Source: an uncultured Gammaproteobacteria bacterium
GTDB lineage: Bacteria > Patescibacteriota > Patescibacteriia > UBA9570 > XYC2-FULL-38-9
Direction of reading: 5' to 3'
Length of the DNA stretch: 64,000 nt
NCBI GenBank assembly: GCA_964492735.1
Contig: CAZBLE010000002.1
Location: 64,135-128,134, forward strand
Shown here: positions 5,316-60,099 of the stretch, in pieces
How positions within the stretch are numbered: position 1 is the stretch's first letter
How the letters are laid out: each line of letters starts with the position of its first letter
Position numbers and translations under genes: made by a program
The notes under the pieces: model-generated
The model's database searches: none
What the model was told of the DNA's origin: nothing
What the model saw: only the letters and a program-made list of their open reading frames with translations

Positions 5316-5324
5316 TCTCATTTT

Positions 5325-5837: not shown

Positions 5838-5867
5838 TGTTATCCACTGTTTCCACTATTCAAAACC

Positions 5868-5895: not shown

Positions 5896-5940
5896 CATCT
5901 ACGGTTCATTCAATTGACTTTGTAGAGAATTTGCTTGCGG

Positions 5941-5970: not shown

Positions 5971-6116
5971 ATTGCTTGAGAAGGAAAAATTCTCACATGT
6001 ATTTCGATGAGTGGTGTGAAGATTTCACGTTGTTCATCGCAAGACATCCATGGTTAATTGTTTTCGTGAGCTGACGCTTTTTTGTTGCGTGTTCATTCAT
6101 GTGAATATTTTTTACT

Positions 6117-7727
6117 ATGTCTAATGTTGTTCGAACATTTTTTGACAAGCTATCATTTTTTACAGCAGCTGAAGCTACCGTTATCACGTTTGTTATTGCT
6201 TCATTAATTGGAGCTGGCGTGCTCTATGGTACTGAACATAATCGCTTGGTGCATGCAAAAAAGCCAATCTTACAAGAGGTGAGTGTTGAGCGTATTCATG
6301 CAACAGATGTTGACGTGCATGTTTCTGGTGAATCAAGCATACAAACACATACCTTCATCCAAGATGTTCAATATGAAGGCGAAACCTTTATTGACATGTG
6401 GTTCACTGCCGTGTCAGCATTGTGTGTCACTGGCCTTACGTCTACTGATTTTTCTGAATTTACACTCGCAGGCCAAATTGTTACGTTGGTGTTGATTCAA
6501 ATGGGTGGTTTGGGAATTATTGTGTTTACATCTTTATTCGCTTTGGCGATTGTTCGTGGACTGTCTGAGGGTGTCTCATTTCGACATTTATTATCTGGTG
6601 TTCTGGACACGGAAGACTATCATGTGTCAACGATGTTAAAGCATGTGTTCATGTACACATTTTTCTTTGAAGGCATTGCAGCAATGATTATGGGCATTCG
6701 ATTGCAATGGTTTAGCGACCCCGTACTATTACAAGGCTTAAATCCATGGTGGTGGTCGCTATTCCATTCTGTGTCTGCGTTTAATAATGCAGGCTTTGGG
6801 TTATTGAATAATAATTTAGTAAACTATGTCACTGATCCTGTGATTAATTTGACTATAGCGACATTGATTATTATCGGCGGGATCGGATATCCAGTCATGA
6901 TTGCGATTCATGCATGGCTTCGTTTAAAGGTTCGTTCTCGTAAAGATGCGACTCAAGCAACGCTTGATGCATCTGTGAGAGAAGTTATGGCATCTCCATT
7001 ACAACTACGCATCGCATTGATTGGTACCCTTCTGCTGTTGATGGTAGGTACAATTATTCCATTATTGGTTGAATGGAATAATCCTGTTATGGAAAGTCAT
7101 TCTATTCCAGAAAAAGTCTTGATTGCCTTTTTTCAAAGTACCTCAACGAGAACCGCTGGGTTTAACACAGTGGACATTGGCGTGCTTGGTGGCGCAACGT
7201 TATTGCTCTATATGATCCTAATGTTTATTGGTGCCAACCCGGCTGGTACGGGTGGTGGTATTAAAATCCCAACAATCGCAGTGCTGTATGGTTTTATGGT
7301 TGATTGGTTTAAAAAACCAGGCAGTCCAGTGACATTGTATCGATTGGTGGTGAGTAAATTTGCTGTTTCACATGCGATTCGATTACTGTTTTTCAGTTTT
7401 GTTTTTATGGGTAGTGTTTCATTTTTGATCATGGTTGCAGAATATCAATTTTTGATCACACCTGATCCAACTTTTAATTTTCTGAAGGTGATGTTTGAAA
7501 TTGTTTCGGCGTTCGGCACGGTTGGTTTATCAATGGGGTTTACTGGCAGCGTGACAAGTTTTGCTGCTGTTTTGACACCTTTTTCAAAAGTGATGTTAAT
7601 TTTGACAATGCTGTTTGGTCGGATTGGCCCACTAACCATTTTGGCGGCGTTGCCGTGGAAGCGAAAATACTTAAATCATCCACCAACGGGTGATCATGCA
7701 GATGCTCAGAAGATCCAGATTGGATAA
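6117..7727 (+). CDS. trkH: TrkH/KtrB-family cation (K+) transporter, paralog 2.
   Basis: ALCVTGLTSTDF, NNAGFGL, GGIGYPV and GTGGGIKIPT motifs. The C-terminus ends ...QKIQIG. Confidence 0.85.
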   Translation: MSNVVRTFFDKLSFFTAAEATVITFVIASLIGAGVLYGTEHNRLVHAKKPILQEVSVERIHATDVDVHVSGESSIQTHTFIQDVQYEGETFIDMWFTAVSALCVTGLTSTDFSEFTLAGQIVTLVLIQMGGLGIIVFTSLFALAIVRGLSEGVSFRHLLSGVLDTEDYHVSTMLKHVFMYTFFFEGIAAMIMGIRLQWFSDPVLLQGLNPWWWSLFHSVSAFNNAGFGLLNNNLVNYVTDPVINLTIATLIIIGGIGYPVMIAIHAWLRLKVRSRKDATQATLDASVREVMASPLQLRIALIGTLLLLMVGTIIPLLVEWNNPVMESHSIPEKVLIAFFQSTSTRTAGFNTVDIGVLGGATLLLYMILMFIGANPAGTGGGIKIPTIAVLYGFMVDWFKKPGSPVTLYRLVVSKFAVSHAIRLLFFSFVFMGSVSFLIMVAEYQFLITPDPTFNFLKVMFEIVSAFGTVGLSMGFTGSVTSFAAVLTPFSKVMLILTMLFGRIGPLTILAALPWKRKYLNHPPTGDHADAQKIQIG

Positions 7728-7895
7728 TTAAGAAATTGTGGTATCCCAGTAAGTTTTGTGTTGCCCGATTTGCGATGAACAGGAATGAGAGGAGGGGTCT
7801 TATTTATTGCCAATCGGACAACGTGCACATTCTTAATCGAATGAATCGTTGTTTGTTGCAAAAATACAGCACCACTATTCTCGTTGGAGAATCAC

Positions 7896-9392
7896 ATGAT
7901 TCAAAAGATGGATAAGGCGAGGTCTTGGTTTGCGGAGTGCTTTAAGCAGGTTAATTGGATGGATTGGAACATCCTCAACGTGCTAACCTTCGTCGTCGGC
8001 ACACTCTTCTTCGGGACGTTGCTGACGGTCATTGAAGGCCTGTCCATCACGGATGGAGTCTTCATGGTCACTTCGGCTCTGTGCGTCACGGGGCTCTCGA
8101 GCGTCGACTTCTCGCAGTTCACTCCGGCCGGTCAGATTCTCATTGCCCTCTGCATCCAGATGGGTGGGTTGGGAATCGTCACGTTTACTTTGCTGGCGGG
8201 CAGCTACATCGTGACTGGTTTGTCAAAGCGTGAGTCTGTTGCAGCGCTGCTGACCAGCGCTTTTGAAACGGACGACCACAAGTCTGCGCGGTACATGCTC
8301 TTCAGCGTGATCCTGCGGTATACGCTGCTTTTTGAAGGCGGCGGAACCCTGATCATGGGAGCATGGCTCCAGTGGGTCAACACCACAACCTTGTCCCCGG
8401 GCCAAAATCCGTGGACCTGGGCGTTTTTCCATTCCATTTCCGCGTTCAACAACGCAGGGTTTGGCATGGAAAGCGACAACCTGATGAAGTTCGCAGGAGA
8501 CCCGGTTATCAACGGTGTCATTGGCGGGCTGATTATCGCTGGAGGAATCGGCTACACTGTCATCCTCGCAGCTCACGTCTGGGTCCTGCGCCGTCTCGGA
8601 AACGGTGATAACTATCAGCAGCTGTTCGAGAAGCTGGTAGCTTCGCCAGTGCAGATCATCATCGCCCGGCGTGGCACGGTCCTGCTCCTTGCCGTTGGAA
8701 CTTTTGTGCCTCTCGTCATCGAGTGGAACAATCCGATGTTCAAGGACTTCAACACGTTCAGCATGCTGCTAGCAACCTGGTTCAACACCGGCGTGAGCCC
8801 GCGAACGGCAGGCTTCAACACCATTGATTTCAGCCAGTTGCATCCAACGACGCTTTGGCTAACCATTGCGTTGATGTTCATCGGCGCAAACCCTGGCGGC
8901 ACTGCGGGCGGGATCAAGATCCCGACCATGTACGTGCTGTGGGGCTACCTGCGCAACTGGCACCGTGAGCCTGGTGCGCACGTCATCGTTGCACATCACA
9001 TGGTGAGCGGGCGCACGGCCAAAAACGCCATCAACCTTTTCTTCTTCAGCGTCATTTGGGTTGGTATCGCAACCTTCCTGGTGACGGGCGCAGAAGAGTG
9101 GCGGATGGCTGAGGATCCGCGGATCAATCCGCTGGCGCTGCAATTTGAGGTCGTCAGCGCCTTCGGAACAGTTGGACTCAGCTTGGGACACCCGAGCGTC
9201 CCGTACTCGCTCTCTGGTGTGCTGTCCACCTTCAGCAAGTGGGTCATTATTCTCACCATGCTGATCGGTCGCCTCGGTCCGTTGACGTGGCTCGGGCTCT
9301 GGCCGTGGCCGCACAATGAGACAGCAGAGGGTGAAGATGCAGATCTCGATCCCGAAGCTCCTCGTGAGCCGGAGAAGCTGCAGATCGGCTGA
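7896..9392 (+). CDS. trkH: TrkH/KtrB-family cation (K+) transporter, paralog 3. It is GC-rich and probably a xenolog.
   Basis: About 50% identical to paralog 2 (ALCVTGLSSVDF, NNAGFGM, GGIGYTV, TAGGIKIPT), and it shares the C-terminal ...EKLQIG. The coding GC is visibly ~60%, against ~40% in the flanks. ATG 7896 is preceded by GGAGA. The ORF-track start at 7884 is a TTG. Confidence 0.85.
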   Translation: MIQKMDKARSWFAECFKQVNWMDWNILNVLTFVVGTLFFGTLLTVIEGLSITDGVFMVTSALCVTGLSSVDFSQFTPAGQILIALCIQMGGLGIVTFTLLAGSYIVTGLSKRESVAALLTSAFETDDHKSARYMLFSVILRYTLLFEGGGTLIMGAWLQWVNTTTLSPGQNPWTWAFFHSISAFNNAGFGMESDNLMKFAGDPVINGVIGGLIIAGGIGYTVILAAHVWVLRRLGNGDNYQQLFEKLVASPVQIIIARRGTVLLLAVGTFVPLVIEWNNPMFKDFNTFSMLLATWFNTGVSPRTAGFNTIDFSQLHPTTLWLTIALMFIGANPGGTAGGIKIPTMYVLWGYLRNWHREPGAHVIVAHHMVSGRTAKNAINLFFFSVIWVGIATFLVTGAEEWRMAEDPRINPLALQFEVVSAFGTVGLSLGHPSVPYSLSGVLSTFSKWVIILTMLIGRLGPLTWLGLWPWPHNETAEGEDADLDPEAPREPEKLQIG

Positions 9393-30365: not shown

Positions 30366-31160
30366 TTATTTTAGCAAGTTATCAAGTGTTGATTTCACTT
30401 GTGCAACTGGAAGTGCTCCTGGGATACTACCAACGATTGTTCCTTTCTTGTCAACAATGACAGAGAATGGAGTGCCGGTTGCGCCAAGACTTTGTGCCAA
30501 TGCTGCGTCTGCATCAACAGTACTTTCTGTTTTTTTGTTGTTTACGCAATCTGCAAATTTATCTTTATTCAAACCAAGTTTTTCTGCTGCTGCGATATGT
30601 TGATCCGCAGTGAGGTTTGTTGCTTGATTTGTGAAATGGTCATCAATAAATTCCCAGAATTTTCCTTGTTCAGCTGCACATTCAGATGCGATTGCCGCTC
30701 CTTGTGCTCCTGGATGAATACTGAGAGGGAAGTGCATGAATGCAACGCCAACTTTTCCGTCGTAGTCTTTAATGACTTGTTCAACAGTTGGGTGGAATTG
30801 TTTACAGAATGGGCAATCAAGGTCAGAGAACTCAATCAATGTTAAGTCACCTTTTCCAGTAATGTTGCGTACTTTTTTCATATCAACACTACCAGTCACA
30901 GTTGTGCCTGCCGCTGCGTTTGTGTTTGCATTCGCATTGGCTTTCACAGTTGTGCCTGTTCCTGCTGCTGTTCCGCCGCCGATTTCAGCGCCGCTAAGCA
31001 ATAAGTAGAGCATGAGTGCAAACCCAATGATTGCGATAACTGCTGTTGCTGAAACGATACCAGCCCAAAACGCAAATTTTGGAGGCATAGCGTCAAAGAG
31101 GCCTTGTTTTTTTGTTGAGGACACTTCTGGTGTACTCATTAATGGTTTTTGTTCTTCCAT
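30366..31160 (-). CDS. DsbA-family thiol:disulfide oxidoreductase with an N-terminal TM anchor.
   Basis: A CPFC active site (DLDCPFCKQFHP), a thioredoxin fold and the cis-Pro region. It has an N-terminal TM helix and an Ala/Gly/Thr/Asn-rich linker. Confidence 0.75.
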   Translation of the reverse strand: MEEQKPLMSTPEVSSTKKQGLFDAMPPKFAFWAGIVSATAVIAIIGFALMLYLLLSGAEIGGGTAAGTGTTVKANANANTNAAAGTTVTGSVDMKKVRNITGKGDLTLIEFSDLDCPFCKQFHPTVEQVIKDYDGKVGVAFMHFPLSIHPGAQGAAIASECAAEQGKFWEFIDDHFTNQATNLTADQHIAAAEKLGLNKDKFADCVNNKKTESTVDADAALAQSLGATGTPFSVIVDKKGTIVGSIPGALPVAQVKSTLDNLLK

Positions 31161-46428: not shown

Positions 46429-47562
46429 CTAGCCCTGACTGTGTTGTGTCTCTGAGCTTTTTGCATAGCTGCGACTCGCAAGATATGTGGTAATTGGAAC
46501 CGCGAGAATCAGTGCTGTGCTACCAACGATTGTGCGAGCAATCTCTTCTGCTAAAAATTGACTGTTAATAGAAACCCAAAATGGTTGTGTTTGGACCTGG
46601 AACAACAAAATAAGTGGTAGTGAAGATCCAGCATATGCCAATACAAGAGTATTAATGAGTGATGCAATATGCTCTCGGCCAACGCGCATGCCTTTCGTAA
46701 ACAAGTCTTTAAATTGCAGCCGTGGATTGGCATCATGAATTTCTTCAATGGTTGCAGTCAGGGCAGTGGTGACATCATCAAGCACACCAAGTACACCAAT
46801 GATCATGCCGACAAGCAATAAGCCCTTCATATTAATTGTGCCGTTATAGGCAGATTGTGCAAAAAATGCATCTTCAGTTCCTTTGCCAAATAGCTTTGTA
46901 ACCCAAATTGCAAAACTGGAAAAAGCGAAAGCGAGCGCAATGGTGATAATTGTTCCTTGAACTGCAAGGACTGTTTTTTTTGTGATTCCGTGCGCCATGA
47001 AGATGGCAATAACTCCAATGCACACTGCACCAATTCCACCAACAACAACCGGGTTCATGCCTTTTGCAATTTGTGGAACAATAAGATACATCAGCAAGCT
47101 AAAAGAAAATCCAAGTCCCGCAAAAGCAGCAATTGATTTGCGCCCGCCAACAATGACTGCGATGGCAATAAAAATCAGCGTTAAAATAATGACGCCAGTC
47201 AAACGATAGTGATCTGTGATGTAAAACAAATCTTGTGATTCATTTTGTACTTTCAACAAGACTACTTGGTCATTTTTTTTAAAATCTCGTTCTGGTCCGT
47301 CGTCAGGATTTTTAACTTGTTGAATATCACGTGTTTGTGTATTGCCATTTGCGTCGCAGCAGTATTGCACGGTAAATGTTTGTTCTGGCCCATCAGTTGG
47401 GGAGAGGCTATTGCGTACATTTATAACAGTGCCACGAAAGTACTGTAATTCAGAATCTGCTGCAGGAGGAGCAACTGTCGTAGTTTGTGCGTTCGCGGAC
47501 ACAGGCAAGCCGCCGAGGTAGAGGATAATGCTGAGAAAAAAGAAGAGTCGATACATGCTCAC
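46429..47562 (-). CDS. YibE/F-like polytopic membrane protein with an N-terminal extracytoplasmic domain.
   Basis: A signal/anchor, then a ~100-aa hydrophilic domain, then 8 TM helices. Confidence 0.4.
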   Translation of the reverse strand: MSMYRLFFFLSIILYLGGLPVSANAQTTTVAPPAADSELQYFRGTVINVRNSLSPTDGPEQTFTVQYCCDANGNTQTRDIQQVKNPDDGPERDFKKNDQVVLLKVQNESQDLFYITDHYRLTGVIILTLIFIAIAVIVGGRKSIAAFAGLGFSFSLLMYLIVPQIAKGMNPVVVGGIGAVCIGVIAIFMAHGITKKTVLAVQGTIITIALAFAFSSFAIWVTKLFGKGTEDAFFAQSAYNGTINMKGLLLVGMIIGVLGVLDDVTTALTATIEEIHDANPRLQFKDLFTKGMRVGREHIASLINTLVLAYAGSSLPLILLFQVQTQPFWVSINSQFLAEEIARTIVGSTALILAVPITTYLASRSYAKSSETQHSQG

Positions 47563-47588
47563 TAGTATAGTGAGATTTTACGCATTGT

Positions 47589-48554
47589 CTAGTTTGTGCA
47601 GTTCATGGCCGCAGAAAGATTTTGTAGATTTTCTCGCATAATATCAGCATAGGTTGTTCCAGTGTCTTTTTGTTCAGGAGTGAGGCCTTCAATTGGATTC
47701 AAGACTGTTGATTGAGCGCCAACTTCTTGCGCAATGGCTTGAGAAAGTTTTGGGCTTGTGAGGGTTTCAAAGAAAATTGTGCGGATATTTTTTTCTTTTG
47801 CGAGCGTCGCAAGATCTGCTAAGTGACTTGCAGATGGTTCTGATTCAGATGAAATGCCGGCAATAGAATGAACGGTAATGCCATATCGTGCGCCAAGATA
47901 TGAAAAGGCATCGTGAGCGACAATGATTTCTGGAGTTGTGCATTGTGTGAGTGTCGTGCGGTACTCAGCGTCGAGTTCTTCAAGTGTTTTGATGTAGGTA
48001 TCTGCGTTTGATCGGTATTCTGCTGCATGTGCAGGATCTGCAGCAATGAACGCGTCACGCACAATAGCGGCTTCTTGTTGGAGTAATACAGGGTCAAGCC
48101 ATGTGTGTGGATCTTTTGGACCCTCTTCACGTTCTTCTTCTGAGCCTTCTTCGTTGCCAATATGCAGAGCTTCAGAAGTGTCACGGAGCGTCATTGTTTT
48201 TGTCACCTCAACCGTTTGAACGTTTTGTTCAGCGAGTTGTGGGGCAAGTTTTTCCGCCCATGCATCAAGGCCAGCGCCATGATACAGGAAGAGAGAAGTG
48301 TCATAGAGCGCTGCAGTATCACGAGCAGTGGGTTCAAAATCATGAATCTCAATCCCGGGTTTTACAATTGATGTGACAGTGACATGCTCTTTACCAATCT
48401 GCTGTGCGAGTTCTTCTAAGATATAGTATGAAACTCCAACGTAGAGTGTTTGTGTGTCTGATTCAGGTGTTGTTGAGCGAGTCTGATAGGCAATGGCTAT
48501 TCCGGCTCCAATAACAAGGAGTGTGATGAGTGTAATAAAAAGATATTTTTTCAT
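47589..48554 (-). CDS. znuA: Metal (Zn/Mn) ABC transporter substrate-binding protein, ZnuA/TroA cluster-9 family.
   Basis: A signal peptide, the conserved HDFEP and PHTWLDP motifs, and a His/Glu-rich flexible loop (HIGNEEGSEEEREEGPKDPH) as in ZnuA. Confidence 0.85.
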   Translation of the reverse strand: MKKYLFITLITLLVIGAGIAIAYQTRSTTPESDTQTLYVGVSYYILEELAQQIGKEHVTVTSIVKPGIEIHDFEPTARDTAALYDTSLFLYHGAGLDAWAEKLAPQLAEQNVQTVEVTKTMTLRDTSEALHIGNEEGSEEEREEGPKDPHTWLDPVLLQQEAAIVRDAFIAADPAHAAEYRSNADTYIKTLEELDAEYRTTLTQCTTPEIIVAHDAFSYLGARYGITVHSIAGISSESEPSASHLADLATLAKEKNIRTIFFETLTSPKLSQAIAQEVGAQSTVLNPIEGLTPEQKDTGTTYADIMRENLQNLSAAMNCTN

Positions 48555-48560: not shown

Positions 48561-48589
48561 AGACTAACGCAACTCAGTTGCATTTGCAA
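48561..48589 (-). promoter_or_regulatory. znuA promoter with an embedded palindromic operator (GCAACTCAGTTGC).
   Basis: On the minus strand: TTGCAA (-35, 48589-48584), a 17-nt spacer holding the palindrome at 48569-48581, then TAGTCT (-10, 48566-48561). About 7 nt separates it from the ATG. Confidence 0.55.
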
Positions 48590-48624
48590 GGGGAATGTGT
48601 GGAAAACAGAAAATCCTCTTTAGT

Positions 48625-49065
48625 TTATTGGCAATTTTTACACACCCCGACAAATTCGAGAGAGTGATCTAAGACACGAAACCCAGTTTGTTTTTTAATA
48701 TGTTTGCTTGCTGCAATGAGTTCTTGTGGCATATCAACATCTGCAACGGCGCCGCATTCAATGCATTGGATGTGATGATGATGACTACCAAGGGCGAGTT
48801 CATACCGCTTCATTTGCTCGCTCCCAAACTGGATTTCTTCAATGAGTTTTTCAGAAAGTAAAAATTCCAGTTCGCGATAGACTGTTGTTTTGTTGACAGT
48901 GAGTTTTTTGCGTTCCAAACCTTTGAGGATTTCTTGAACAGTCAGTGGAATGTGTGATGAGAAAAAAATACCAAGGACAGCTCGACGAGTCTGGGTAATT
49001 CGATGGCCTTTGTCGCGTAATGTTTCAATAACCGCTTCTGGCGTTGTCGATTCAGCATGTTTCAT
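48625..49065 (-). CDS. zur: Fur-family metalloregulator (likely Zur).
   Basis: A winged-helix N-terminus, an HHHH motif, and CIECG...CKNC (a structural Zn site). It is adjacent to znuA. Confidence 0.8.
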   Translation of the reverse strand: MKHAESTTPEAVIETLRDKGHRITQTRRAVLGIFFSSHIPLTVQEILKGLERKKLTVNKTTVYRELEFLLSEKLIEEIQFGSEQMKRYELALGSHHHHIQCIECGAVADVDMPQELIAASKHIKKQTGFRVLDHSLEFVGVCKNCQ

Positions 49066-49578: not shown

Positions 49579-50340
49579 ATGTCCATCGACACAAAGAATA
49601 TTTTACGGCAAATCGGTTTTACAGATTCTGAAATTTTGATATATCTTGCTGCTATTCAGTATGGGCCAATGACTGTTATTGAGTTGGCAAAGCATTCTGG
49701 GCTCACTCGCCAAATGGTCTATACACTCCTGCCGCGTCTTGAAAAAGAAAGTTTAATGAAAGAAGTGCGGTCTGATAGTAAGCGTTTATTTGCAGCCACT
49801 GATCCAAAATTATTAGAAGATCGCGTAAACATGATTGCGCGTGATGTACGGTATGTGATTCCGCAATTACAAATGATGCATTCAGAGAATGCAATGTTAC
49901 CGATTATGACTGTTTATGATAATCCTTTGAGCATTCGGGAGTTGTATCGTCGTTTTATGAAAGAAGCTGTGCCAGAAGAAGATGTTCGTTTGTGGGTAAC
50001 GAATAAAGTGTGGGTGAGTATGGATGCCGATTATTTACGGACGTTTGTGCATTTTAAAAATAAGCATAGAATACGTGATTTAATTATTGCACCTGACACC
50101 AAAGAGTCGCGGTCATATGCAAAAGAAATGTTTCAACCGTATTCTGAGTACCGTTTTTTGAAAGATCATTGGAATACAAATGCAGAGAAATGGATCTGGA
50201 GAGATATTATTGTATACTTAACAATTAGCGATGAAGCAACAAATTTAATAGTCGTTGAATCACCCGCACTCGCAGCAATTGAACGGGCTGGGTTTGACGC
50301 TGTTTGGAGGTCATTACCAAAAGGGAGGAAGTCTATGTAG
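49579..50340 (+). CDS. TrmB-family transcriptional regulator.
   Basis: N-terminal HTH ILRQIGFTDSEILIYLAAIQYGPMTVIELAKHSGLTRQMVYTLLPRLEKESLM, plus a C-terminal TrmB-like domain. Confidence 0.55.
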   Translation: MSIDTKNILRQIGFTDSEILIYLAAIQYGPMTVIELAKHSGLTRQMVYTLLPRLEKESLMKEVRSDSKRLFAATDPKLLEDRVNMIARDVRYVIPQLQMMHSENAMLPIMTVYDNPLSIRELYRRFMKEAVPEEDVRLWVTNKVWVSMDADYLRTFVHFKNKHRIRDLIIAPDTKESRSYAKEMFQPYSEYRFLKDHWNTNAEKWIWRDIIVYLTISDEATNLIVVESPALAAIERAGFDAVWRSLPKGRKSM

Positions 50341-50491
50341 ATATTGATATGAGGCGTGAAGGTACAAAAATTTTGAGGAGGATATTTGTATCAGGTATAT
50401 TGTTTATCAAATAAGAAAGGGAACCAGCACGCCGACCCAACTCTGCTCAGTGAGGGAGGGTGGTCCTTGTGCTGGTTGGCGCGTTTATCTG

Positions 50492-51011
50492 TCAGGTCGC
50501 CGCGCGGTAGGTCGTTGCGCTGGGGCGGATGCAGAGCCAGTCATCGGGGTAGATCAGGTCGTCGTCAGTAAGGTTCGTCACAACGAACCCGGAGTTGATG
50601 ACGACCACATCATCGCCGTAGCGCTGCTTGAGCTCTTTCACCGTCCAACCAGCTTCTTCGCTGGCGATGGTGATCTGTGCGGCTCGGGGGTAGCGGAAGG
50701 TGATCCGCAGTCCAGCAGGGAGGGGGGTATCTCGGTTGAGGTCTTCGATGAGCTCGAGACCTTCGCCATCCGCGATTGCCAAGCCACGAATGTCTGCGAG
50801 GTCTTCTGCTTCCACGAGCTCCTCGAGAAGTTGACCGAGAGTCTGTCCCTCAAAGGTCTCTCCCGTTGCGATGCGGCCCCCGGCGCTCACCATCCGTCCC
50901 GTTCCCAGGACGATGTAGTTGCAGCCGCCGAGCTGCGTCATCGTGGCTGCCGCGAACATCGCACCAAGCCTAGTTAACAATCCTCTGCGTGTCAGGCTCA
51001 TAGGAGCGCCT
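50492..51011 (-). CDS. Twin-arginine (Tat) signal lipoprotein, hypothetical. GC-rich.
   Basis: AGGAGG lies 7 nt upstream of ATG 51011. MSLTRRGLLTRLGAMFAAATMTQLGGC gives an RR motif plus an LGGC lipobox. The C-terminal half is beta-grasp-like. Confidence 0.5.
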
Positions 51012-51413
51012 CCTGGTTTGTTTGCTCCGAAGATTTGTCGATGCGGCGCCATCAACAAATTTTGGCAACAAAAAAACCGGGCACAGCCGGAATATCAAAA
51101 ATATTCACATACGCTGTTTCCACTCCACGAGAAACGTCAGAAAAATCTTTGAACTGGACCTGGCTTATTCGCTCTTCCAGAGAAGGCGACATGACAGTTG
51201 CGGGTCAGCGCTGGGAATCACACCCAGACTTCCGTTGCAAAGAAGGTGACAAACTTCGAACAAAGAACGATAGTACAAGCACTATAACATAGTTTTTCAA
51301 TTACTACATCTAGTGTTATCCACAGAGAATAGGCACTATAGAGCGGATTTATTAATGAACGCCATTTTTTAGCAAAAAAATATGAAGAAGGGAATATGGT
51401 CATTGCTCCACTG

Positions 51414-52193
51414 TCAGTGAATGTGACCTTCTTCCTCTTCTTCATACACACGACCACTGTGGTCCGTGTGGTCGTGGTGCGCACCCGGCTTTACAATGTG
51501 ATGGTCAAAGCCGGCACGGAACTGGACCCCGAGGCTGCCGCACTTGCTCTGGCACCAGTCAGTGCCAGTAAAGCCTGCATGTGAACTCATGAGCATGAGC
51601 TCGTAGATTCCGCGGCTCATGTGTCCGGTTTCAAGGCGTAGCACGAGACCGATGTTTAGCTCAGCATAACTGACGCCGAAGAAGCTACTTGAGTGAGCCT
51701 CTGGTACAAATGCCGGTGCCCATTCAATCCGCGCACCAATGCCAAAGCTGCGGCGAGTCTCAATATGAGGCACAACTGTCAGCGCGATTTGCGCATCTTC
51801 AGCGTCCGCGTGGACCTCTAAGTCACCGTAGAGTCGGAAGTTGCCGCCTGGCAAGCCCCAGCGCGTGTCAATGACACCGCCGCCAGAGATTGCGACCCCA
51901 TTTTGTTCAAGATGCAGACCGAGAGCTGGCCCGATGTCAACTTCAAACCACTGGCCATTTTCTGTGTGGCCGTGGATGTCGAGGCCAGCGTGGCAATCTC
52001 CATGCCCAAGCAAAGTCCCATCAGAACTGGTGATACCAGATCCAACAAGGCCGCCGTGGCAGCCAATCGAAAAGGCAATGGGGATTTTCCCTTCTGCCTC
52101 ATGTGCATGCTCATCTTCTTCCGCGACTGCTTTCGCAAGCGGAAAAAAGAGCACGAAGAAAGAGCAGATAAACAACCGGACAATTGAACGCAT
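51414..52193 (-). CDS. Secreted His-rich (putative metal-binding) protein. GC-rich.
   Basis: A signal peptide. His clusters at both ends (EEDEHAHEAEG...; ...GAHHDHTDHSGRVYEEEEEGHIH) and many internal His/Asp residues. Its promoter shares the znuA operator. Confidence 0.5.
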   Translation of the reverse strand: MRSIVRLFICSFFVLFFPLAKAVAEEDEHAHEAEGKIPIAFSIGCHGGLVGSGITSSDGTLLGHGDCHAGLDIHGHTENGQWFEVDIGPALGLHLEQNGVAISGGGVIDTRWGLPGGNFRLYGDLEVHADAEDAQIALTVVPHIETRRSFGIGARIEWAPAFVPEAHSSSFFGVSYAELNIGLVLRLETGHMSRGIYELMLMSSHAGFTGTDWCQSKCGSLGVQFRAGFDHHIVKPGAHHDHTDHSGRVYEEEEEGHIH

Positions 52194-52265
52194 GGGAAGC
52201 CTCTATGGAAAGGGTGTTTTTTGCAAAGAACAAATGATTGATACAGCGACACAACAAGCGGCCGT

Positions 52266-52294
52266 ATCTTAATGCAACTTAGTTGCGTTTGCAA
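52266..52294 (-). promoter_or_regulatory. Promoter of the His-rich protein gene with the same embedded palindrome (GCAACTTAGTTGC).
   Basis: On the minus strand: TTGCAA (52294-52289), a 17-nt spacer holding the palindrome at 52274-52286, then TAAGAT (52271-52266). A 26-nt block is nearly identical to the znuA promoter at 48565-48593. Confidence 0.55.
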
Positions 52295-52347
52295 GGGGCG
52301 GATATTAAAAAAATGTGGACAACTGTCCAAAATGAGTGATGAGTGGA

Positions 52348-53220
52348 TTAGAGTGTGGAAGAATGAACGCCGCCGCTTTGTGCCCAATAGTCACGATAGA
52401 GCTGTGATAGCTCAAGAACTCTTGGCGTAATTGTTTCAAATACAAAATCATCAATTGATTTTATTGGCAACACTTTTGTGCTCGTGCTGGTGAGAAACGC
52501 GCCGTCGTATGAGCTGATTTCAGAAAGGTGAATTGGTCGCTGTTCAACAGACCAACCGTTTTGAATCGCAATGTCTTGCAGAACAATCTTTGTTACACCT
52601 TCAAGAATCTCTGCTTGCGGTGGGTGATAGAGGATTTTTTTATCTGTATTCACTGTAAAAAAATTAGTGCGCGTGCCTTCAGTGATTTCTTGGTTGCGAT
52701 TGAGCAAGAGTGCGTCATACGCGCCATGTTTTTTCGCTTCACGGTACGCCAAGTAACTGCCAAGCATTGCAAGAGTTTTCGCCTCTGGAAATGGCCGTTC
52801 ATATGAATGCGTAATCGTATGGCAACCGGTTTTATAGAGTTTCCGATCAACAAACAATGGAGCTGAAGCAAAGAGATAGAGTTGTACATCAGCGGGATTT
52901 GCTGCGCCCAGAAATAAGATTTTGATATTACATGTCTGAGCGATCGCAAGAGCGTGAGTAATAAATGTATTCAGCTGCTCAGTAATCTGCTGCGTTGTAA
53001 AGGCATGTTCAAGGTCAATGTGATGCGCGGAATGCAGTAGTCGATCAACATGTTGCTGCGTAAAATACGCAATACCATTTTCAATCCGAATGGTTTCATA
53101 GACCCCAAAGCCATATTCGAGTTCTGTGTTTGCGACTGGCAGGACAGCGTCAGCGGCTGGTAGGAGCTCGCCATTACGCATACAGAGTTGTTCAAGTGAG
53201 TGATTCATAGTCAGTTCCAT
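52348..53220 (-). CDS. Class IV (fold-type IV) aminotransferase (IlvE/Dat/PabC family).
   Basis: EGTRTNFF, the PLP-Lys region and EGVTK at the C-terminus. I place the start at ATG 53220 or 53208 to avoid a 146-nt overlap with the upstream HD gene. Confidence 0.7.
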   Translation of the reverse strand: MELTMNHSLEQLCMRNGELLPAADAVLPVANTELEYGFGVYETIRIENGIAYFTQQHVDRLLHSAHHIDLEHAFTTQQITEQLNTFITHALAIAQTCNIKILFLGAANPADVQLYLFASAPLFVDRKLYKTGCHTITHSYERPFPEAKTLAMLGSYLAYREAKKHGAYDALLLNRNQEITEGTRTNFFTVNTDKKILYHPPQAEILEGVTKIVLQDIAIQNGWSVEQRPIHLSEISSYDGAFLTSTSTKVLPIKSIDDFVFETITPRVLELSQLYRDYWAQSGGVHSSTL

Positions 53221-58280: not shown

Positions 58281-58432
58281 AAGAAAATGATATATTGATT
58301 AATACCTCAAAGAATAGCAGATATGGGATTTTTCTGAAAGTGAAATGGTGTGTAGAAACAACAAAACCTCGGTCTGCATACAGCGAGCTGTAGCGTTCCG
58401 AGGATTTTCTCCTCTTGAGAGCACCGGTCGGA

Positions 58433-58705
58433 TCAGGACCGGCTCAATCGCCTCACGGCGATGATGCGCACGGCGTTCCGTGCGGCTCGGAGGGCGGCGA
58501 CGGTCTGATTGACCTCGCCGTCACCCCAGGGAAGGAGGCTAATGCCAATGGCACCGGCCTCACAGGTGCAAAGCGTGGCCAGAAGGCCGGCCACGCCACC
58601 GTTGTCGGGACAGGACGCCCAGAGCGCGAGGGCGCTCAGGACGGCCATCGTACAGAGGTTCCGGAGCCGCAGGAGCGGGTCCGGAGGACACAACCACTTC
58701 ATCAT
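58433..58705 (-). CDS. Hypothetical 90-aa Cys-containing small membrane protein encoded in a GC-rich islet.
   Basis: AGGAGGA lies 4 nt upstream of ATG 58705. The sequence is MMKWLCPPDPLLRLRNLCTMAVLSALALWASCPDNGGVAGLLATLCTCEAGAIGISLLPWGDGEVNQTVAALRAARNAVRIIAVRRLSRS. Confidence 0.4.
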   Translation of the reverse strand: MMKWLCPPDPLLRLRNLCTMAVLSALALWASCPDNGGVAGLLATLCTCEAGAIGISLLPWGDGEVNQTVAALRAARNAVRIIAVRRLSRS

Positions 58706-58896
58706 GGCGTCCTCCTCTTGCACTGCCAGGCGGCAGCGCCAGTGCCGAGGGATTCGGCAACTGCAGACTGCTGAGGACTCCATCCATCAGACTGCAATTT
58801 CCGATCCAGCATGCCATTAAGGGGCGTGTATATTGCACACCTTATACGCGAATATTCAGTATTTGTCTAGTACCCCTTGTGGAGAGCTCTGCCGAT

Positions 58897-59178
58897 TTAT
58901 TCAGTTCGTTGTATCAGTGTTATTGTTCCATTATCACTAATGAAATTATCAAGCACAGGAATATCGGCGGCAGATCGAATTGTCCAGTTTAAGAAGGTGA
59001 TAAGAAGAGCGGCGATAATTGATGCGCCGACTGCATATCCAGCACCTTTTCCAATTGAAATAACAACATTCCATTTAAACGAAATTTGCTTTTCAATTTT
59101 TTTGTCGAGTTCATGAATTCGCTGAGAGAGCTGCTGTAGTTCATGTTCGAGTTCTTGTTCTTTTTTTATTTGTACCAT
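58897..59178 (-). CDS. Small coiled-coil plus TM hypothetical protein.
   Basis: MVQIKKEQELEHELQQLSQRIHELDKKIEKQ, then a TM helix. Native AT-rich codon usage. Confidence 0.35.
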   Translation of the reverse strand: MVQIKKEQELEHELQQLSQRIHELDKKIEKQISFKWNVVISIGKGAGYAVGASIIAALLITFLNWTIRSAADIPVLDNFISDNGTITLIQRTE

Positions 59179-59328
59179 ACGGAAAGTATAGAACAATTTG
59201 TATCAAATAGACAAAGTGCGGAGTGGTCAGTTCCGCCTGCGATTCGACTTCGGGGTGTTGTGTGAAGTGAGTCGCTTTTTTGACCGGTGGTGGTTGGCAC
59301 GGTGACGGCAGACTCCAGTACCCTAGGT

Positions 59329-59982
59329 TCAGCCGTTGAGACCGTGCACCGTGCGGAACGCCGGAAGAGTGCACAGGTGCTCGTACACTCCCCAGATCTT
59401 CGGCCACTTCTCCGAGACGGGGAGGCTGAAGCGGCTGATCGCCGCCCAGACCTCGGTGCCGAGGGTGATGTCGGCGAGCGTCAAGCGCTCGCCAACGCAG
59501 AAGTCTGGGTCGCTCTGGTGGAGCTTGAGCATCCTCTCGAGGGCGTCGAAGGCACGCCCTACCCAGAAGATCGACCAGCCGTTGGTCTCGGCCCTGCTGG
59601 TGTAGTGAGCTTCCTGCATCAGCCGCAGGAGCGGCTGGCGGTTGCCGAGCGGCCTCAGGTCCGAGTCCAGGAGCCGCATGATCTCCCGAACCCGGAAGCG
59701 CTCGAGTGTGCCTTCGCCCAGCAGCTGTGCCTTAGGACACAGCTCGGCGAAGTACTCCATGATTGCCCCACTTTGAGTGAGGACATCCTCCACCTTGCCG
59801 TGACCCGTCAGGTCGAGGGCAGGGACACGCTGGTTCGGGTTAATCGCCGTGAAGGCGCTCCCGAACTGCTCTTCTGCGGCCAGGTTGACTTCGATCAGTG
59901 TGTAGTTGATTCTGAGGAGGGCAAGGACGACGCGCACGGGCTTTGGGCCCCGTGCCGCTTCGCATGAATAGAGTTTCATCAT
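59329..59982 (-). CDS. Glutathione S-transferase (zeta/maleylacetoacetate-isomerase-like). GC-rich.
   Basis: GGAGG lies 6 nt upstream of the ATG. KLYSCEAARGPKPVRVVLAL...NPNQRVPAL...QSGAIMEYF gives the N-terminal thioredoxin-like GST domain plus a C-terminal helical domain. Confidence 0.7.
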   Translation of the reverse strand: MMKLYSCEAARGPKPVRVVLALLRINYTLIEVNLAAEEQFGSAFTAINPNQRVPALDLTGHGKVEDVLTQSGAIMEYFAELCPKAQLLGEGTLERFRVREIMRLLDSDLRPLGNRQPLLRLMQEAHYTSRAETNGWSIFWVGRAFDALERMLKLHQSDPDFCVGERLTLADITLGTEVWAAISRFSLPVSEKWPKIWGVYEHLCTLPAFRTVHGLNG

Positions 59983-60099
59983 GCACAACCTCCATGGTTG
60001 AGTGCAGAATTACCCTAAGCCGTCTCAGATATTTGGTCAACTGATGTATACGGAGTTTTTTAGCAAGCCGAGCGCACTATATGTGCTATACTATTTTTT

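What the first reader, a model, noticed from the sequence alone, without database searches (positions are those of the whole stretch)
50400..52340. A GC-rich two-gene islet encoding a Tat-signal lipoprotein and a His-rich secreted protein, each with a strong SD.
The roughly 1.9 kb segment has visibly higher GC than its flanks. Both genes have AGGAGG/AGAGG SDs, unlike most native genes. One protein has a twin-arginine motif (TRRGLL) plus an LGGC lipobox. The other has EEDEHAHEAEG and HHDHTDHSGRVYEEEEEGHIH termini suggestive of Zn/Ni binding. Coupled to the shared operator above, this looks like a horizontally acquired low-metal-response cassette, possibly a metallochaperone or metal-scavenging pair. 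A Tat substrate is unusual for a minimal-genome bacterium, so the genome should be checked for tatA/tatC.
Basis: partly seen in the sequence, partly recalled or inferred. Interest (0 to 1): 0.6.

Follow-up and report, generated by a model that had tools for sequence, protein, structure and literature searches.

The report
Two separately switched nutrient-scavenging surface genes
The GC-rich "two-gene islet" is really two independent one-gene units in a small-genome bacterium: a histidine-rich secreted protein switched by a metal-sensing repressor site, and a small surface lipoprotein switched by a previously unnoticed vitamin-B12 riboswitch. Both proteins belong to tiny families with no known relatives.

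Summary
Gene A (50492-51001, minus strand) and gene B (51414-52193, minus strand) are strong GC3 outliers: 0.71 and 0.56 against 0.36±0.05. Both have SD sequences that native genes lack. The TRRGLL/LGGC signal and the His-rich ends are present.

The palindromic operator shared with znuA sits only upstream of B. This is true in this genome and in three relatives. B also has its own terminator.

The 410-nt normal-GC spacer holds a cobalamin riboswitch (about 51116-51298, minus strand). It scores below Rfam's threshold (32.7 bits, E 1e-3) and is followed by a hairpin with a U7 run and the SD of gene A.

The only gene A homologue (36-37% identity, TRREFL signal) sits in a relative's syntenic slot behind the same leader. 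That leader is 93-94% identical, whereas neighbouring genes are 67-80% identical. A third, Rfam-level riboswitch (50.0 bits) precedes another GC-rich TRRRLL lipoprotein elsewhere.

So B is probably a Zur-type zinc scavenger. A is probably a corrinoid-starvation-induced, Tat-exported surface lipoprotein, and possibly a new B12-capture protein.

Misassembly is excluded by synteny. The presence of Tat machinery could not be tested.

The parts
52302..52329 (-). Promoter-like site for gene B (TGGACA, 16-nt spacer, TAATAT).
   Evidence: Consensus scan, 9 of 12 matches. It lies just upstream of the operator. A consensus match only; function is inferred.
52271..52289 (.). Palindromic 9-1-9 operator AATGCAACTTAGTTGCGTT, a putative Fur-family (Zur-like) box controlling gene B.
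   Evidence: There are two copies in the window, this one and 48566-48584 upstream of znuA. The expected count is 0.06. The same motif lies upstream of the B homologues in L001, L002 and L003, and upstream of znuA in L001, L004 and L005.
51414..52193 (-). Gene B: a 259-aa secreted protein. It has a Sec signal, acidic/His-rich N- and C-terminal tails, four conserved Cys and more than 13 conserved His. Predicted all-beta (10 long amphipathic strands).
   Evidence: ORF and translation. No Pfam, NCBIfam or PDB sequence match. Relatives found: three entries in the word-indexed protein search, one of them the window's own protein and two at 72% and 69% identity, plus one further locus (L003, 74%) in the genome-contig pattern scan. 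The AF2 model is low-confidence (pLDDT 41) but all-beta. GC3 is 0.56, z = 3.9.
51372..51434 (-). Terminator of gene B. The hairpin GAAGAAGG…CCTTCTTC overlaps the stop codon and is followed by a run of T.
   Evidence: Read from the sequence. The equivalent hairpin with a T-run follows the B homologue in L001. Function is inferred.
51335..51365 (-). Imperfect duplicate of the 3' end of the aminotransferase gene. It marks the junction between the B unit and the A unit.
   Evidence: Local alignments with the window's own aminotransferase end (52340-52370) and with the L004 aminotransferase end.
51116..51298 (-). Cobalamin riboswitch aptamer plus P13 hairpin. The core reads GGAAGUCUGGGUGUGAUUCCCAGCGCUGACCCGCAACUGU…AAGCCAGGUC, and the L13 motif is CUCGUGG.
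   Evidence: Rfam RF01482 hit: 32.7 bits, E 1.2e-3, below the gathering score of 50. The orthologous leader in L004 scores 34.3 bits. The relative in L030 scores 50.0 bits. The core pattern marks Rfam-verified cobalamin riboswitches in 17 of 20 metagenomic loci tested. My own model R1 gives 58 bits, but that score is partly circular. Helices P1, P4, P6 and P13 stay complementary in three sequences despite sequence changes. The leader is 93-94% identical to L004, against 67-80% for flanking genes.
51070..51090 (-). Hairpin CCGGC-UGU-GCCCGG followed by U7. A terminator-like expression platform of the riboswitch.
   Evidence: Read from the sequence. It is identical in L004, and an analogous hairpin with a U6 run exists in L030. 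The simple terminator scan did not call it because the stem is bulged. Function is inferred.
51009..51014 (-). Shine-Dalgarno sequence AGGAGG of gene A. It can pair with the CUCCU just before the start codon.
   Evidence: The small local hairpin is read from the sequence.
50492..51001 (-). Gene A: a 169-aa Tat-type lipoprotein precursor (TRRGLL…LGGC). The mature protein is about 143 aa, with a small C-terminal alpha/beta domain.
   Evidence: ORF. An exhaustive search of 1.84 billion cluster representatives found one full-length homologue, P0005 (E 1e-24, 37% identity, TRREFL…TTGC), and two weak LysM-repeat hits to residues 94-164. No Pfam or NCBIfam match. AF2 gives pLDDT 50 overall and about 78 for residues 110-160, with weak RCK_C-like fold hits. 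GC3 is 0.71, z = 6.9. The upstream ATG used in the 186-aa GenBank call is closed by a stop codon in L004.
50408..50477 (-). Terminator of gene A. The stem AACCAGCAC…GUGCUGGUU is followed by a U-rich tail.
   Evidence: Inverted repeat I19 and a terminator-like site. The CCAGCAC/GTGCTGG stem is conserved after the homologue in L004.
48566..48584 (.). Second copy of the operator. It lies 11 nt upstream of znuA (47589-48554, minus strand) and downstream of the Fur-family gene (48625-49065, minus strand).

Best explanation
The segment holds two independent monocistronic units. They lie side by side in a rearrangement-prone slot between a class-IV aminotransferase gene and the trmB/fur-znuA-yibEF cluster.

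**Unit B** consists of a promoter, a palindromic Fur-family (most likely Zur) operator placed over the start of the transcript, an SD, a secreted His/Asp/Glu-rich all-beta protein, and a terminator.
- When the metal (most likely Zn2+) is plentiful, the repressor encoded next to znuA binds the operator.
- When the metal is scarce, B is made together with ZnuA and exported by Sec.
- B then captures metal with its His-rich tails and His/Asp-lined strands for hand-over to the ZnuA binding protein. The capture and hand-over steps are inferred.

**Unit A** consists of a promoter, a cobalamin riboswitch of the short type without a P6 extension (closest Rfam model RF01482), a hairpin with a U7 run, an SD, a small lipoprotein with a twin-arginine signal, and a terminator.
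- When intracellular corrinoid is high, the aptamer binds it and expression is shut off. The off-switch logic is inferred from how nearly all known cobalamin riboswitches work.
- When corrinoid is scarce, the lipoprotein is made, exported folded through Tat, lipid-anchored at Cys27 and displayed on the cell surface.
- Its most likely role there is capture of external corrinoids for an uptake system encoded elsewhere. This last step is inferred from what cobalamin riboswitches control in other bacteria.

**Other points.**
- The strong SDs are probably a consequence of the long 5' leaders in a genome whose genes are otherwise SD-less or leaderless, rather than a donor signature.
- The high GC3 points to foreign or atypical origin of both coding sequences. 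No donor was found.
For: **Architecture**
- B and A are separated by B's conserved terminator and a 410-nt leader.
- Relatives carry B only (L001, L002, L003), A only (L004/L005), or both (the window), always in the same slot.

**Operator**
- It occurs exactly twice in the window, upstream of znuA and upstream of B.
- Across five related loci it is found only in those two positions.
- The Fur-family gene is present in every locus that extends that far. The TrmB-like gene is absent from L002 and L004, so it is not the cognate regulator.

**Riboswitch**
- Rfam RF01482 hits with E 1.2e-3 and 6e-4 in the two orthologous leaders, and 50.0 bits (gathering score 50) in the related L030 element.
- The 13+10-nt core of the leader is found in 115 metagenomic loci. 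Of 20 tested, 17 are Rfam-verified cobalamin riboswitches. The other three are copies of the same L030 sequence, which was missed in gathering mode but scored 50.0 bits on a separate test.
- P1, P4, P6 and P13 remain complementary in three sequences with different primary sequence.
- The leader is 93-94% identical between genomes whose neighbouring genes are 67-80% identical and whose A proteins are 36-37% identical.
- The antisense ORF over the leader is not conserved.

**Function by association**
- Downstream genes of riboswitches sharing this core are mostly BtuF-like lipoproteins and transcobalamin-like (Prenyltrans+DUF4430) proteins.
- In Bacteroides, riboswitch-controlled lipoproteins of several unrelated folds (BtuG, BtuH, BtuJ, BtuK) bind cobamides (PMC12751083, PMC13616437).

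**Tat signal**
- T-R-R-x-[FL]-L is kept in the window protein, in P0005, and in the unalignable L030 protein, each followed by a hydrophobic stretch ending in G-C.

**B as a metal binder**
- Conserved His, Asp, Glu and Cys across four homologues, and alternating His/Asp faces on the predicted strands.
- The DsbA-like gene at 30366-31160 shows that the cell can form extracytoplasmic disulfide bonds.
Against: - The window riboswitch is below Rfam's gathering score. My own model's 58 bits is inflated, because its training set was chosen with a pattern taken from this very sequence.
- Covariation rests on only three distinct sequences.
- No ligand binding, and no on/off logic, can be shown in silico. 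The link between P13 and the hairpin-U7 element is unclear.
- Gene A has no similarity to any known corrinoid binder. Its only fold hints are weak RCK_C/TrkA_C-like and LysM-like matches. It has no conserved His or Cys beyond the lipobox.
- No B12 transporter or B12-dependent enzyme is seen in the 64-kb window.
- The Fur-family regulator cannot be assigned to Zur, Fur or PerR. The ZnuA-family protein scores similarly for Zn and Mn models. The metal is therefore inferred.
- Both structure models are of low confidence.
- tatA/tatC and lgt/lspA were not found in the window, and the rest of the genome is not available.
Confidence: 0.6

Rival explanations
1. A and B form one horizontally acquired two-gene cassette, co-regulated by the operator shared with znuA. 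Together they act as a metallochaperone or metal-scavenging pair.
For: The genes are adjacent, on the same strand, and both GC-rich with SDs. The operator lies upstream of the first gene. Some read-through of B's terminator cannot be excluded.
Against: - B has a conserved terminator.
- A is preceded by its own conserved leader with a riboswitch.
- In relatives the two genes occur separately: B without A in L001-L003, and A without B and without the operator in L004/L005.
Confidence: 0.08
2. Gene A is not a corrinoid binder. It is a small wall- or host-surface-binding lipoprotein with a LysM-like or RCK_C-like C-terminal domain, for example an attachment or envelope factor. The riboswitch merely ties its expression to B12 status.
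For: - Weak phmmer hits of residues 94-164 to LysM-repeat proteins (E 2e-5 and 5e-5).
- Foldseek's best local matches are RCK_C domains (probability up to 0.95 over about 57 columns, but E ≥ 0.025).
- Surface proteins of this lineage evolve fast (ZnuA 42% and A 36% identity, against 98% for Band7). This fits an exposed interaction protein.
Against: - Pfam LysM and TrkA_C do not reach significance.
- Cobalamin riboswitches that share this core overwhelmingly control corrinoid-binding or corrinoid-transport proteins.
- No precedent is known to me for a B12 riboswitch controlling an adhesin.
Confidence: 0.22
3. Gene B is a membrane-embedded beta-barrel (a metal channel or porin-like protein) rather than a soluble scavenger.
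For: - Ten predicted strands of 12-18 residues with strict alternation. One face is apolar (L, I, V, F, A, G) and the other is H/D/E/R-rich, with short turns and an aromatic-ending last strand, …VQFRAGF.
- One relative's contig is labelled as a Bdellovibrionales (diderm) MAG.
Against: - The gene content of the window looks monoderm or CPR-like: short 246-aa YidC, VanW, YibE/F, DUF1003, IF-2B-family isomerase, and no outer-membrane biogenesis genes.
- The model has pLDDT 41.
- A 20-30-residue His-rich tail follows the last strand, which is unlike classical outer-membrane proteins.
- The MAG label rests on a 2.7-kb contig that could be mis-binned.
Confidence: 0.15
4. The riboswitch-like leader is a decayed relic, or a chance resemblance, with no regulatory role.
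For: The Rfam score is below the gathering threshold, with P1 mismatches in the Rfam alignment. The leader lacks the usual P2 hairpin seen in most of the 52 aligned relatives.
Against: - 93-94% identity over about 350 nt between genomes that are 67-80% identical in neighbouring coding DNA.
- Changes fall in loops or are compensatory.
- The L13 motif and a downstream hairpin with a U-run are present.
- A closely related element scores at Rfam's threshold.
Confidence: 0.05
5. The islet is an assembly chimera or contaminant DNA.
For: There are abrupt GC shifts at the gene boundaries.
Against: - Independent assemblies from other samples show the same junctions: aminotransferase-operator-B (L001, L002, L003) and aminotransferase-leader-A-fur (L004, L005).
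- The regulatory DNA around both genes has native composition.
Confidence: 0.02

Closest known systems
Cobalamin riboswitches (Rfam clan CL00101; closest model RF01482 'AdoCbl')
   Same: It shares the conserved core (GGAAG…GGUG…CCC GC(A/C)ACUG…AAGCCAGG, the 'B12 box' region), P4 and P6 hairpins, a closing helix, a downstream P13 hairpin with a CUCGNGG loop, and a position in the 5' leader of an extracytoplasmic protein gene.
   Different: - It scores 32.7 bits, against a gathering score of 50.
- It lacks the P2 hairpin present in most aligned relatives.
- P13 does not contain the SD. Instead, a separate hairpin with a U7 run follows, about 75 nt before the SD.
- It controls a protein family never linked to B12.
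Riboswitch-controlled cobamide-capturing lipoproteins of Bacteroides (BtuG, BtuH, BtuJ, BtuK; PMC12751083, PMC13616437), and BtuF-like or transcobalamin-like proteins of monoderm bacteria
   Same: It is a surface-anchored lipoprotein gene directly behind a cobalamin riboswitch. Small size is not unusual for this class: BtuJ is a small jelly-roll lipoprotein with no enzymatic domain.
   Different: - No sequence or detectable fold similarity (no Pfam hit).
- A twin-arginine signal rather than a Sec-type lipoprotein signal.
- A single-gene unit with no transporter gene beside it.
- Corrinoid binding is untested.
Zur-regulated extracytoplasmic zinc scavengers or chaperones (ZinT/YrpE, pneumococcal Pht histidine-triad proteins with AdcAII, AztD, ZrgA)
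   Same: B is a secreted, His-rich protein whose gene carries the same operator as the ZnuA-family binding-protein gene, next to a Fur-family regulator gene. Its expected role is metal capture and hand-over under starvation.
   Different: - No homology to any of these families.
- A predicted all-beta protein with long amphipathic strands and four conserved Cys.
- Metal identity and the regulator's specificity are not established.
Tat-dependent lipoproteins (known from Actinobacteria and haloarchaea; stated from general knowledge)
   Same: The T-R-R-x-[FL]-L motif is followed by a hydrophobic region ending in a Cys preceded by Gly. This is conserved in three proteins.
   Different: The host is a low-GC, small-genome bacterium. 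Tat, Lgt and Lsp genes were not seen in the available sequence. The lipobox is non-canonical in two of the three proteins (TTGC, VPGC).

Membership tests
Cobalamin riboswitch (Rfam CL00101 / RF01482) | Score at or above the family's gathering threshold. | tested here: not met
   Window: 32.7 bits against a gathering score of 50 (E 1.2e-3). L004 orthologue: 34.3 bits. The related L030 element reaches 50.0 bits.
Cobalamin riboswitch (Rfam CL00101 / RF01482) | Conserved core nucleotides (J3/4-P4 GGAAG..GGUG, CCCGC(C/A)ACUG, B12-box AAGCCAGG). | tested here: met
   All are present. The 13+10-nt core pattern retrieves 115 metagenomic loci. Of 20 tested, 17 are above Rfam's gathering score for RF00174 or RF01482.
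Cobalamin riboswitch (Rfam CL00101 / RF01482) | Helices maintained by compensatory change. | tested here: met
   P1 (UCUUUG/CAAAGA vs AUCAAUCC/GGAUUGAU), P4 (three variants), P6 and P13 are fully paired in the window, L004 and L030. There are only three distinct sequences, so statistical power is low.
Cobalamin riboswitch (Rfam CL00101 / RF01482) | Binds a corrinoid and changes gene expression. | not testable with these tools
   Needs in-line probing, ITC or a reporter assay.
Twin-arginine (Tat) signal peptide | An [ST]-R-R-x-F-L-K-like motif, followed by a moderately hydrophobic h-region and a cleavage site. | tested here: met
   TRRGLL (window), TRREFL (P0005) and TRRRLL (L030), each followed by 15-20 mostly apolar residues. 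Gene A is the only convincing RR signal in the window.
Twin-arginine (Tat) signal peptide | TatA and TatC are encoded in the genome. | not testable with these tools
   A motif scan found no TatA-like ORF in 64 kb, and there was no TatC Pfam hit among the window ORFs ≥150 aa plus several shorter ones that were scanned. The rest of the genome is unavailable. Tat is reported in some CPR classes (PMC9166423).
Bacterial lipoprotein | Lipobox [LVI][ASTVI][GAS]-C at the end of the signal peptide. | tested here: inconclusive
   LGGC in the window fits the loose pattern, although Gly at position -2 is uncommon. The homologues have TTGC and VPGC. The G-C is conserved in all three. Lgt and Lsp were not seen in the window.
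Fur-family (Zur) regulon member | A palindromic 7-1-7 / 9-1-9 operator shared with the metal-uptake gene, next to the regulator gene. | tested here: met
   AAYGCAACTNAGTTGCRTT lies upstream of znuA and upstream of B only, in the window and in five related loci. The Fur-family gene is adjacent.
Fur-family (Zur) regulon member | The regulator is Zur and the signal is zinc. | tested here: inconclusive
   NCBIfam gives Fur, PerR and Zur models, all far below their cut-offs. The binding protein scores for AztC (Zn), MntC (Mn) and AdcA (Zn).
Known zinc scavengers (ZinT, Pht histidine triad, ZrgA/DUF2796, AztD) | Sequence membership (Pfam or NCBIfam model, or a PDB relative). | tested here: not met
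   No Pfam match at E ≤ 0.1 and no NCBIfam match at E ≤ 1 for B. No PDB sequence or profile match.
Known corrinoid-binding proteins (BtuF, BtuG, BtuH, BtuJ/IPR027828, DUF4430/transcobalamin-like) | Sequence or fold membership. | tested here: not met
   No Pfam or NCBIfam hit for A or P0005. No PDB hit. Foldseek against the PDB found nothing with E < 0.001. The model is of low confidence, so fold-level membership is not excluded.
LysM / TrkA_C (RCK_C) domain | A significant match to the domain model. | tested here: inconclusive
   LysM: only two phmmer hits to LysM-repeat proteins, E 2e-5 and 5e-5, and no Pfam LysM hit. TrkA_C: E 0.2 for P0005, and RCK_C tops the Foldseek list with E ≥ 0.025.
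Horizontally acquired islet | Atypical composition at synonymous sites, patchy distribution, and an identifiable donor. | tested here: inconclusive
   GC3 z-scores are 6.9 (A) and 3.9 (B), and A and B are patchily present among relatives. However, no homologue outside this lineage was found for A among 1.84 billion cluster representatives or for B in the word-indexed search of 5.8 billion sequences. B is shared by four lineages with similar GC3.

The most novel reading that the evidence does not exclude
Gene A, P0005 and perhaps the L030 protein define a new class of small corrinoid-capturing lipoproteins. They are Tat-exported and controlled by a divergent, sub-threshold branch of cobalamin riboswitches, in small-genome (CPR-like) bacteria. 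The conserved riboswitch leader would act as a fixed regulatory 'socket', behind which a GC-rich, fast-evolving or repeatedly replaced coding sequence is expressed.
Probability: 0.3. Interest if true: 0.7.

Novelty: new variant of a known kind. Interest (0 to 1): 0.5.

Why it matters
Small-genome, host-dependent bacteria must scavenge both trace metals and B12, yet how they do this is largely unknown.

- This locus gives two concrete and cheaply testable candidates. Each comes from a family with no annotated relative, and each is tagged by a regulatory element that says when it is needed.
- If A binds corrinoids, it would add a new fold, and a Tat-exported example, to the set of bacterial B12-capture proteins.
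- The riboswitch shows that real cobalamin riboswitches lie below Rfam's threshold in such lineages. B12-dependence inferred from riboswitch censuses is therefore underestimated there.
- The case also shows that strong SDs and GC-rich coding sequences can sit behind native, highly conserved leaders. This complicates simple "foreign islet" calls.

Tried and rejected
- **Curated family searches.** Pfam, NCBIfam and PDB sequence or profile searches on both proteins found nothing.
- **Structure prediction.** Both AlphaFold runs gave low confidence, because the alignments held only 2-3 sequences. I therefore used only secondary structure for B and ran no fold search on it. The PDB fold search for A gave only weak RCK_C hits.
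- **tRNA fragment idea.** I first took the CUGGGUGUGAUUCCCAG element for a tRNA 3' fragment or att site. ARAGORN and Rfam found no tRNA there, and the element turned out to be P4 of the riboswitch.
- **Homology of the L030 lipoprotein to gene A.** hhalign gave probability 3% and E 0.015 over the C-terminal 69 columns. This is suggestive only, so I did not count it as a family member.
- **My own covariance model.** It scored the window leader at 58 bits. I discount this because the training sequences were selected with a pattern taken from the leader.
- **MFE folding of the leader.** Uninformative (z = -1.65).
- **Hidden antisense peptide as the cause of leader conservation.** Rejected. The ORF boundaries differ, and several of the substitutions within it are non-synonymous.
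- **TrmB-like protein as the operator's regulator.** Rejected, because the gene is absent from L002 and L004.
- **TatA motif search in the window.** Negative, but 64 kb is uninformative for the whole genome.
- **Taxonomy.** It could not be settled. One relative's 2.7-kb contig is labelled Bdellovibrionales, whereas the gene content looks CPR-like or monoderm.


Full report
**1. What is there**

The window averages about 42% GC. It shows three GC-rich islets: about 8.0-9.5 kb, 50.5-52.1 kb and 58.4-60.0 kb.

The finding covers two minus-strand ORFs.
- Gene A (50492-51001, 169 aa) begins MSLTRRGLLTRLGAMFAAATMTQLGGC. It is preceded by AGGAGG with a 7-nt spacer.
- Gene B (51414-52193, 259 aa) begins with a Sec-type signal, …PLAKA/VAEEDEHAHEAEG. 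It ends in HHDHTDHSGRVYEEEEEGHIH.

Codon-position analysis of 52 genes supports the compositional claim.

| Gene | GC3 | z-score |
|---|---|---|
| Background (48 genes) | 0.361±0.051 | – |
| Gene A | 0.712 | 6.9 |
| Gene B | 0.558 | 3.9 |
| TrkH paralogue (7884-9392) | 0.72 | 7.1 |
| GST-like gene (59329-59988) | 0.83 | 9.1 |

The excess is therefore at synonymous sites, and not only an effect of amino-acid composition. The 410 nt between A and B have ordinary GC.

SD use is indeed exceptional. Most native genes have no SD, and many carry a TATACT-like box immediately before the start codon.

**2. The shared operator belongs to B and znuA only**

A 29-nt direct repeat contains the palindrome AAYGCAACTNAGTTGCRTT. 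It occurs at 48565-48593 and at 52270-52298.
- With up to three mismatches there are exactly two matches in 64 kb. The expected count is 0.06, and 0 of 100 shuffles gave two.
- One copy lies 11 nt upstream of a ZnuA-family binding-protein gene (47589-48554), directly after a Fur-family gene (48625-49065).
- The other copy lies between a promoter-like site (52302-52329) and gene B.

**3. Relatives show that A and B are separable**

B has two database homologues at 72% and 69% identity, and a third in a genome collection at 74%. In all three loci the order is aminotransferase, operator, B. B is then followed directly by the TrmB-like gene (L001, L003) or the Fur-family gene (L002). Gene A is absent.

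A had no homologue in the word-indexed search.
- An exhaustive HMMER scan of 1.84 billion cluster representatives found one full-length relative, P0005. It has 167 aa, E 1e-24 and 37% identity, and starts MRMTRREFLSGLSCAVIAGSIATTTGC.
- The same scan found two weak matches of residues 94-164 to LysM-repeat proteins.
- P0005 lies in the same slot of another relative (L004/L005), in the order aminotransferase, leader, A-homologue, fur, znuA, yibEF. That locus has no B.

Across all loci the operator occurs only before znuA and before B, never before A. The TrmB-like gene is missing in L002 and L004, so the Fur-family protein is the plausible cognate regulator.

B also has its own terminator. The hairpin GAAGAAGG…CCTTCTTC overlaps the stop codon, is followed by a T-run, and is conserved in L001.

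A roughly 30-nt imperfect copy of the aminotransferase 3' end lies after B (51335-51365). It marks the joint between the two units.

These independent assemblies, with identical junctions, exclude a chimeric contig.

**4. The spacer is a cobalamin riboswitch**

An Rfam scan of 50300-52400 at permissive thresholds gave one notable hit. It was RF01482 (AdoCbl riboswitch) at 51102-51260 on the minus strand, with 32.7 bits and E 1.2e-3, against a gathering score of 50.

The leader in front of P0005 gives the same hit, at 34.3 bits.

*Conservation*
- The two leaders are 93-94% identical over about 350 nt, right up to the start codon.
- By contrast, the surrounding genes are 67-80% identical at the DNA level.
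- The two A proteins are only 36-37% identical.
- Substitutions fall in loops or are compensatory. An example is CUGGG/CCCAG against CUAGG/CCUAG.
- An antisense ORF over the leader is not conserved.

*The core pattern in metagenomes*
- A pattern taken from the core, GACCCGCAACTGT-N10-40-AAGCCAGGTC, matched 115 metagenomic loci.
- Of 20 tested, 17 are Rfam cobalamin riboswitches above the gathering score.
- The other three are copies of one sequence (L030 = L083 = L119). In the more sensitive mode it scores 50.0 bits for RF01482.
- That element is the closest relative of the window leader.

*Helices and expression platform*
- In the window, L004 and L030 the helices P1, P4, P6 and P13 are fully paired, although their sequences differ.
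- The P13 loop carries the CUCGNGG motif that is invariant in 52 aligned riboswitches.
- A bulged GC hairpin followed by U7 (51070-51090) comes next. It is identical in L004, and there is an analogous hairpin in L030.
- After that come about 55 nt and then the SD.

*Caveat*
- My own covariance model, built without these three sequences, hits the window at 58 bits.
- I discount that number, because the training set was selected with the window-derived pattern.

Overall I consider the riboswitch call well supported. The ligand and the switching logic remain untested.

**5. What these riboswitches control**

Among the 89 distinct metagenomic riboswitches sharing the core, the first downstream ORF is usually one of two kinds:
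- a BtuF-like lipoprotein of about 330 aa;
- a protein of about 600 aa that Pfam identifies as Prenyltrans+DUF4430, which is the transcobalamin-like architecture. In L019 and L074 it is followed by a DUF6580 membrane protein.

In L030/L119 the riboswitch, a terminator and a GGAGG SD precede a 228-aa protein that starts …GPTRRRLLTGLALTPLAIMVPGC.
- It is again a twin-arginine signal ending in G-C.
- It is again very GC-rich (GC 0.66, GC3 0.86) in a 44-46% GC genome.
- Its similarity to A is only suggestive (hhalign E 0.015, probability 3%).

In Bacteroides, riboswitch-controlled lipoproteins of several unrelated folds (BtuG, BtuH, BtuJ, BtuK) have been shown to bind cobamides (PMC12751083, PMC13616437).

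By this association, the most likely role of A is corrinoid capture at the cell surface. This is an inference.

A has no detectable similarity to any known B12 binder.
- Its AlphaFold model is poor: pLDDT 50 overall and about 78 for residues 110-160.
- The weak fold and sequence hints point to an RCK_C/TrkA_C-like or LysM-like small domain.

**6. Gene B**

The four homologues share the following:
- four Cys;
- more than 13 His;
- many Asp and Glu;
- His-rich acidic tails at both ends of the mature protein.

The AlphaFold model is unreliable (pLDDT 41) but consistently all-beta, with ten strands of 12-18 residues. In the sequence, one face of each strand is apolar and the other carries H/D/E/R. 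An example is L-G-H-G-D-C-H-A-G-L-D-I-H-G-H.

This fits two possibilities:
- a soluble sheet or sandwich with a metal-binding face;
- a membrane barrel with a polar lumen.

The window's gene content argues against an outer membrane. It includes a short 246-aa YidC, VanW, YibE/F, DUF1003, an IF-2B-family isomerase and a V/A-type ATPase, and no outer-membrane biogenesis genes. I therefore favour a secreted or wall-associated scavenger. This would be analogous in role, not in sequence, to ZinT or the Pht proteins.

The metal is inferred. NCBIfam cannot assign the regulator among Fur, PerR and Zur, and the binding protein scores for both Zn and Mn models. The His-rich loop of the ZnuA-family protein and the His-rich B favour zinc.

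**7. Why the strong SDs and the high GC?**

Both genes have long 5' leaders: about 100 nt for B and about 270 nt for A. They sit in a genome whose genes mostly start without an SD. An SD is what internal initiation on a long leader needs. It is therefore not by itself evidence of foreign origin (inference).

The GC3 excess is real, but no donor can be named.
- A has no relatives outside this lineage among 1.84 billion cluster representatives.
- B has none in the word-indexed search of 5.8 billion sequences.
- B has similar GC3 (0.52-0.59) in four lineages, which suggests an old event.
- A's homologue has GC3 0.60.

Exposed proteins diverge fast here:

| Protein, window vs L004 | Identity |
|---|---|
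| ZnuA | 42% |
| A 403-aa protein | 48% |
| Gene A | 36% |
| Band7 | 98% |

A's divergence behind a nearly invariant leader therefore fits rapid evolution, or replacement, of a surface protein.

**8. Tat**

The RR motif is conserved in three very different proteins, so it is under selection. In the window no TatA-like motif or TatC was found. However, 64 kb says little about the whole genome. Tat components are reported in some CPR classes (PMC9166423). This point remains open.

**9. Verdict**

B is a metal-starvation gene. A is not part of that cassette, and is instead a corrinoid-regulated Tat lipoprotein.
- The regulatory elements are members of known kinds. One of them, the riboswitch, is a divergent member below the Rfam threshold.
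- The two proteins are new, very small families.
- Interest is moderate. The locus offers a testable candidate for a new B12-capture protein, and a new Zur-regulon protein, in a poorly understood group of bacteria.

Noticed in passing
window 7884-9392 (+), beside 3594-5315 and 6117-7727: A third TrkH-family gene is strongly GC-rich (GC 0.57, GC3 0.72, z = 7.1). It lies directly after two TrkH genes of native composition, and looks like a foreign paralogue.
   Followed up: partly
window 58415-58840 and 59329-59988 (-): A GST/maleylacetoacetate-isomerase-like gene has GC3 0.83 (z = 9.1). A neighbouring 400-bp GC-rich stretch has ORFs in several frames, none with a Pfam hit. A normal-GC 99-aa gene (58897-59196) sits between them.
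   Followed up: partly
window 46429-48554 (-); L001 5323-7495; L004 11206-13343: The ZnuA-family binding-protein gene is followed by a YibE/F-family membrane protein gene, not by ABC permease and ATPase genes. The same order is seen in three genomes, so YibE/F may be the membrane partner for metal uptake here.
   Followed up: no
whole window (52 gene starts): Most genes have no SD. Many have a TATACT- or TATAGT-like box within about 10-15 nt of the start codon, which suggests widespread leaderless or very short-leader mRNAs.
   Followed up: partly
window 51335-51365 vs 52340-52370: An imperfect duplicate, about 30 nt long, of the aminotransferase gene's 3' end flanks the B unit. This is a footprint of the recombination that placed B and the riboswitch-A unit side by side.
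   Followed up: partly
window 51050-51052 (-): GenBank's 186-aa version of gene A starts at an upstream in-frame ATG inside the leader. In L004 that reading frame is closed by TGA, so the 169-aa start after the SD is the real one.
   Followed up: yes
window 50450-50977 (+): A 175-aa antisense ORF overlaps gene A. Similar long ORFs overlap the other GC-rich genes. They are by-products of high GC content and are not genes.
   Followed up: partly
L019 8015-11569; L074 752-5149: RF01482-type cobalamin riboswitches in other low-GC metagenomic contigs precede a transcobalamin-like protein of about 600 aa (Prenyltrans + DUF4430), then small Ig-like proteins and a DUF6580 membrane protein. This is probably a B12 capture and uptake operon.
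   Followed up: partly
L119 1-650 and 4200-6900: The genome that carries the third riboswitch-lipoprotein module is also a mosaic. A 65-70% GC aldehyde-dehydrogenase-family gene (5158-6828) lies beside 41-49% GC proB and proC genes, so it may be a foreign proA replacement.
   Followed up: no
window vs L004/L001 orthologues: Protein identity between relatives ranges from 98% (Band7) to 40-42% (ZnuA) within one syntenic block. Extracytoplasmic proteins are the most divergent.
   Followed up: partly
L003 (JBIIKE010000104.1): This 2.7-kb contig carries the syntenic aminotransferase-B-TrmB block and is deposited as part of a 'Bdellovibrionales bacterium' MAG. The window's gene content looks CPR-like or monoderm, so the contig may be mis-binned.
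   Followed up: no
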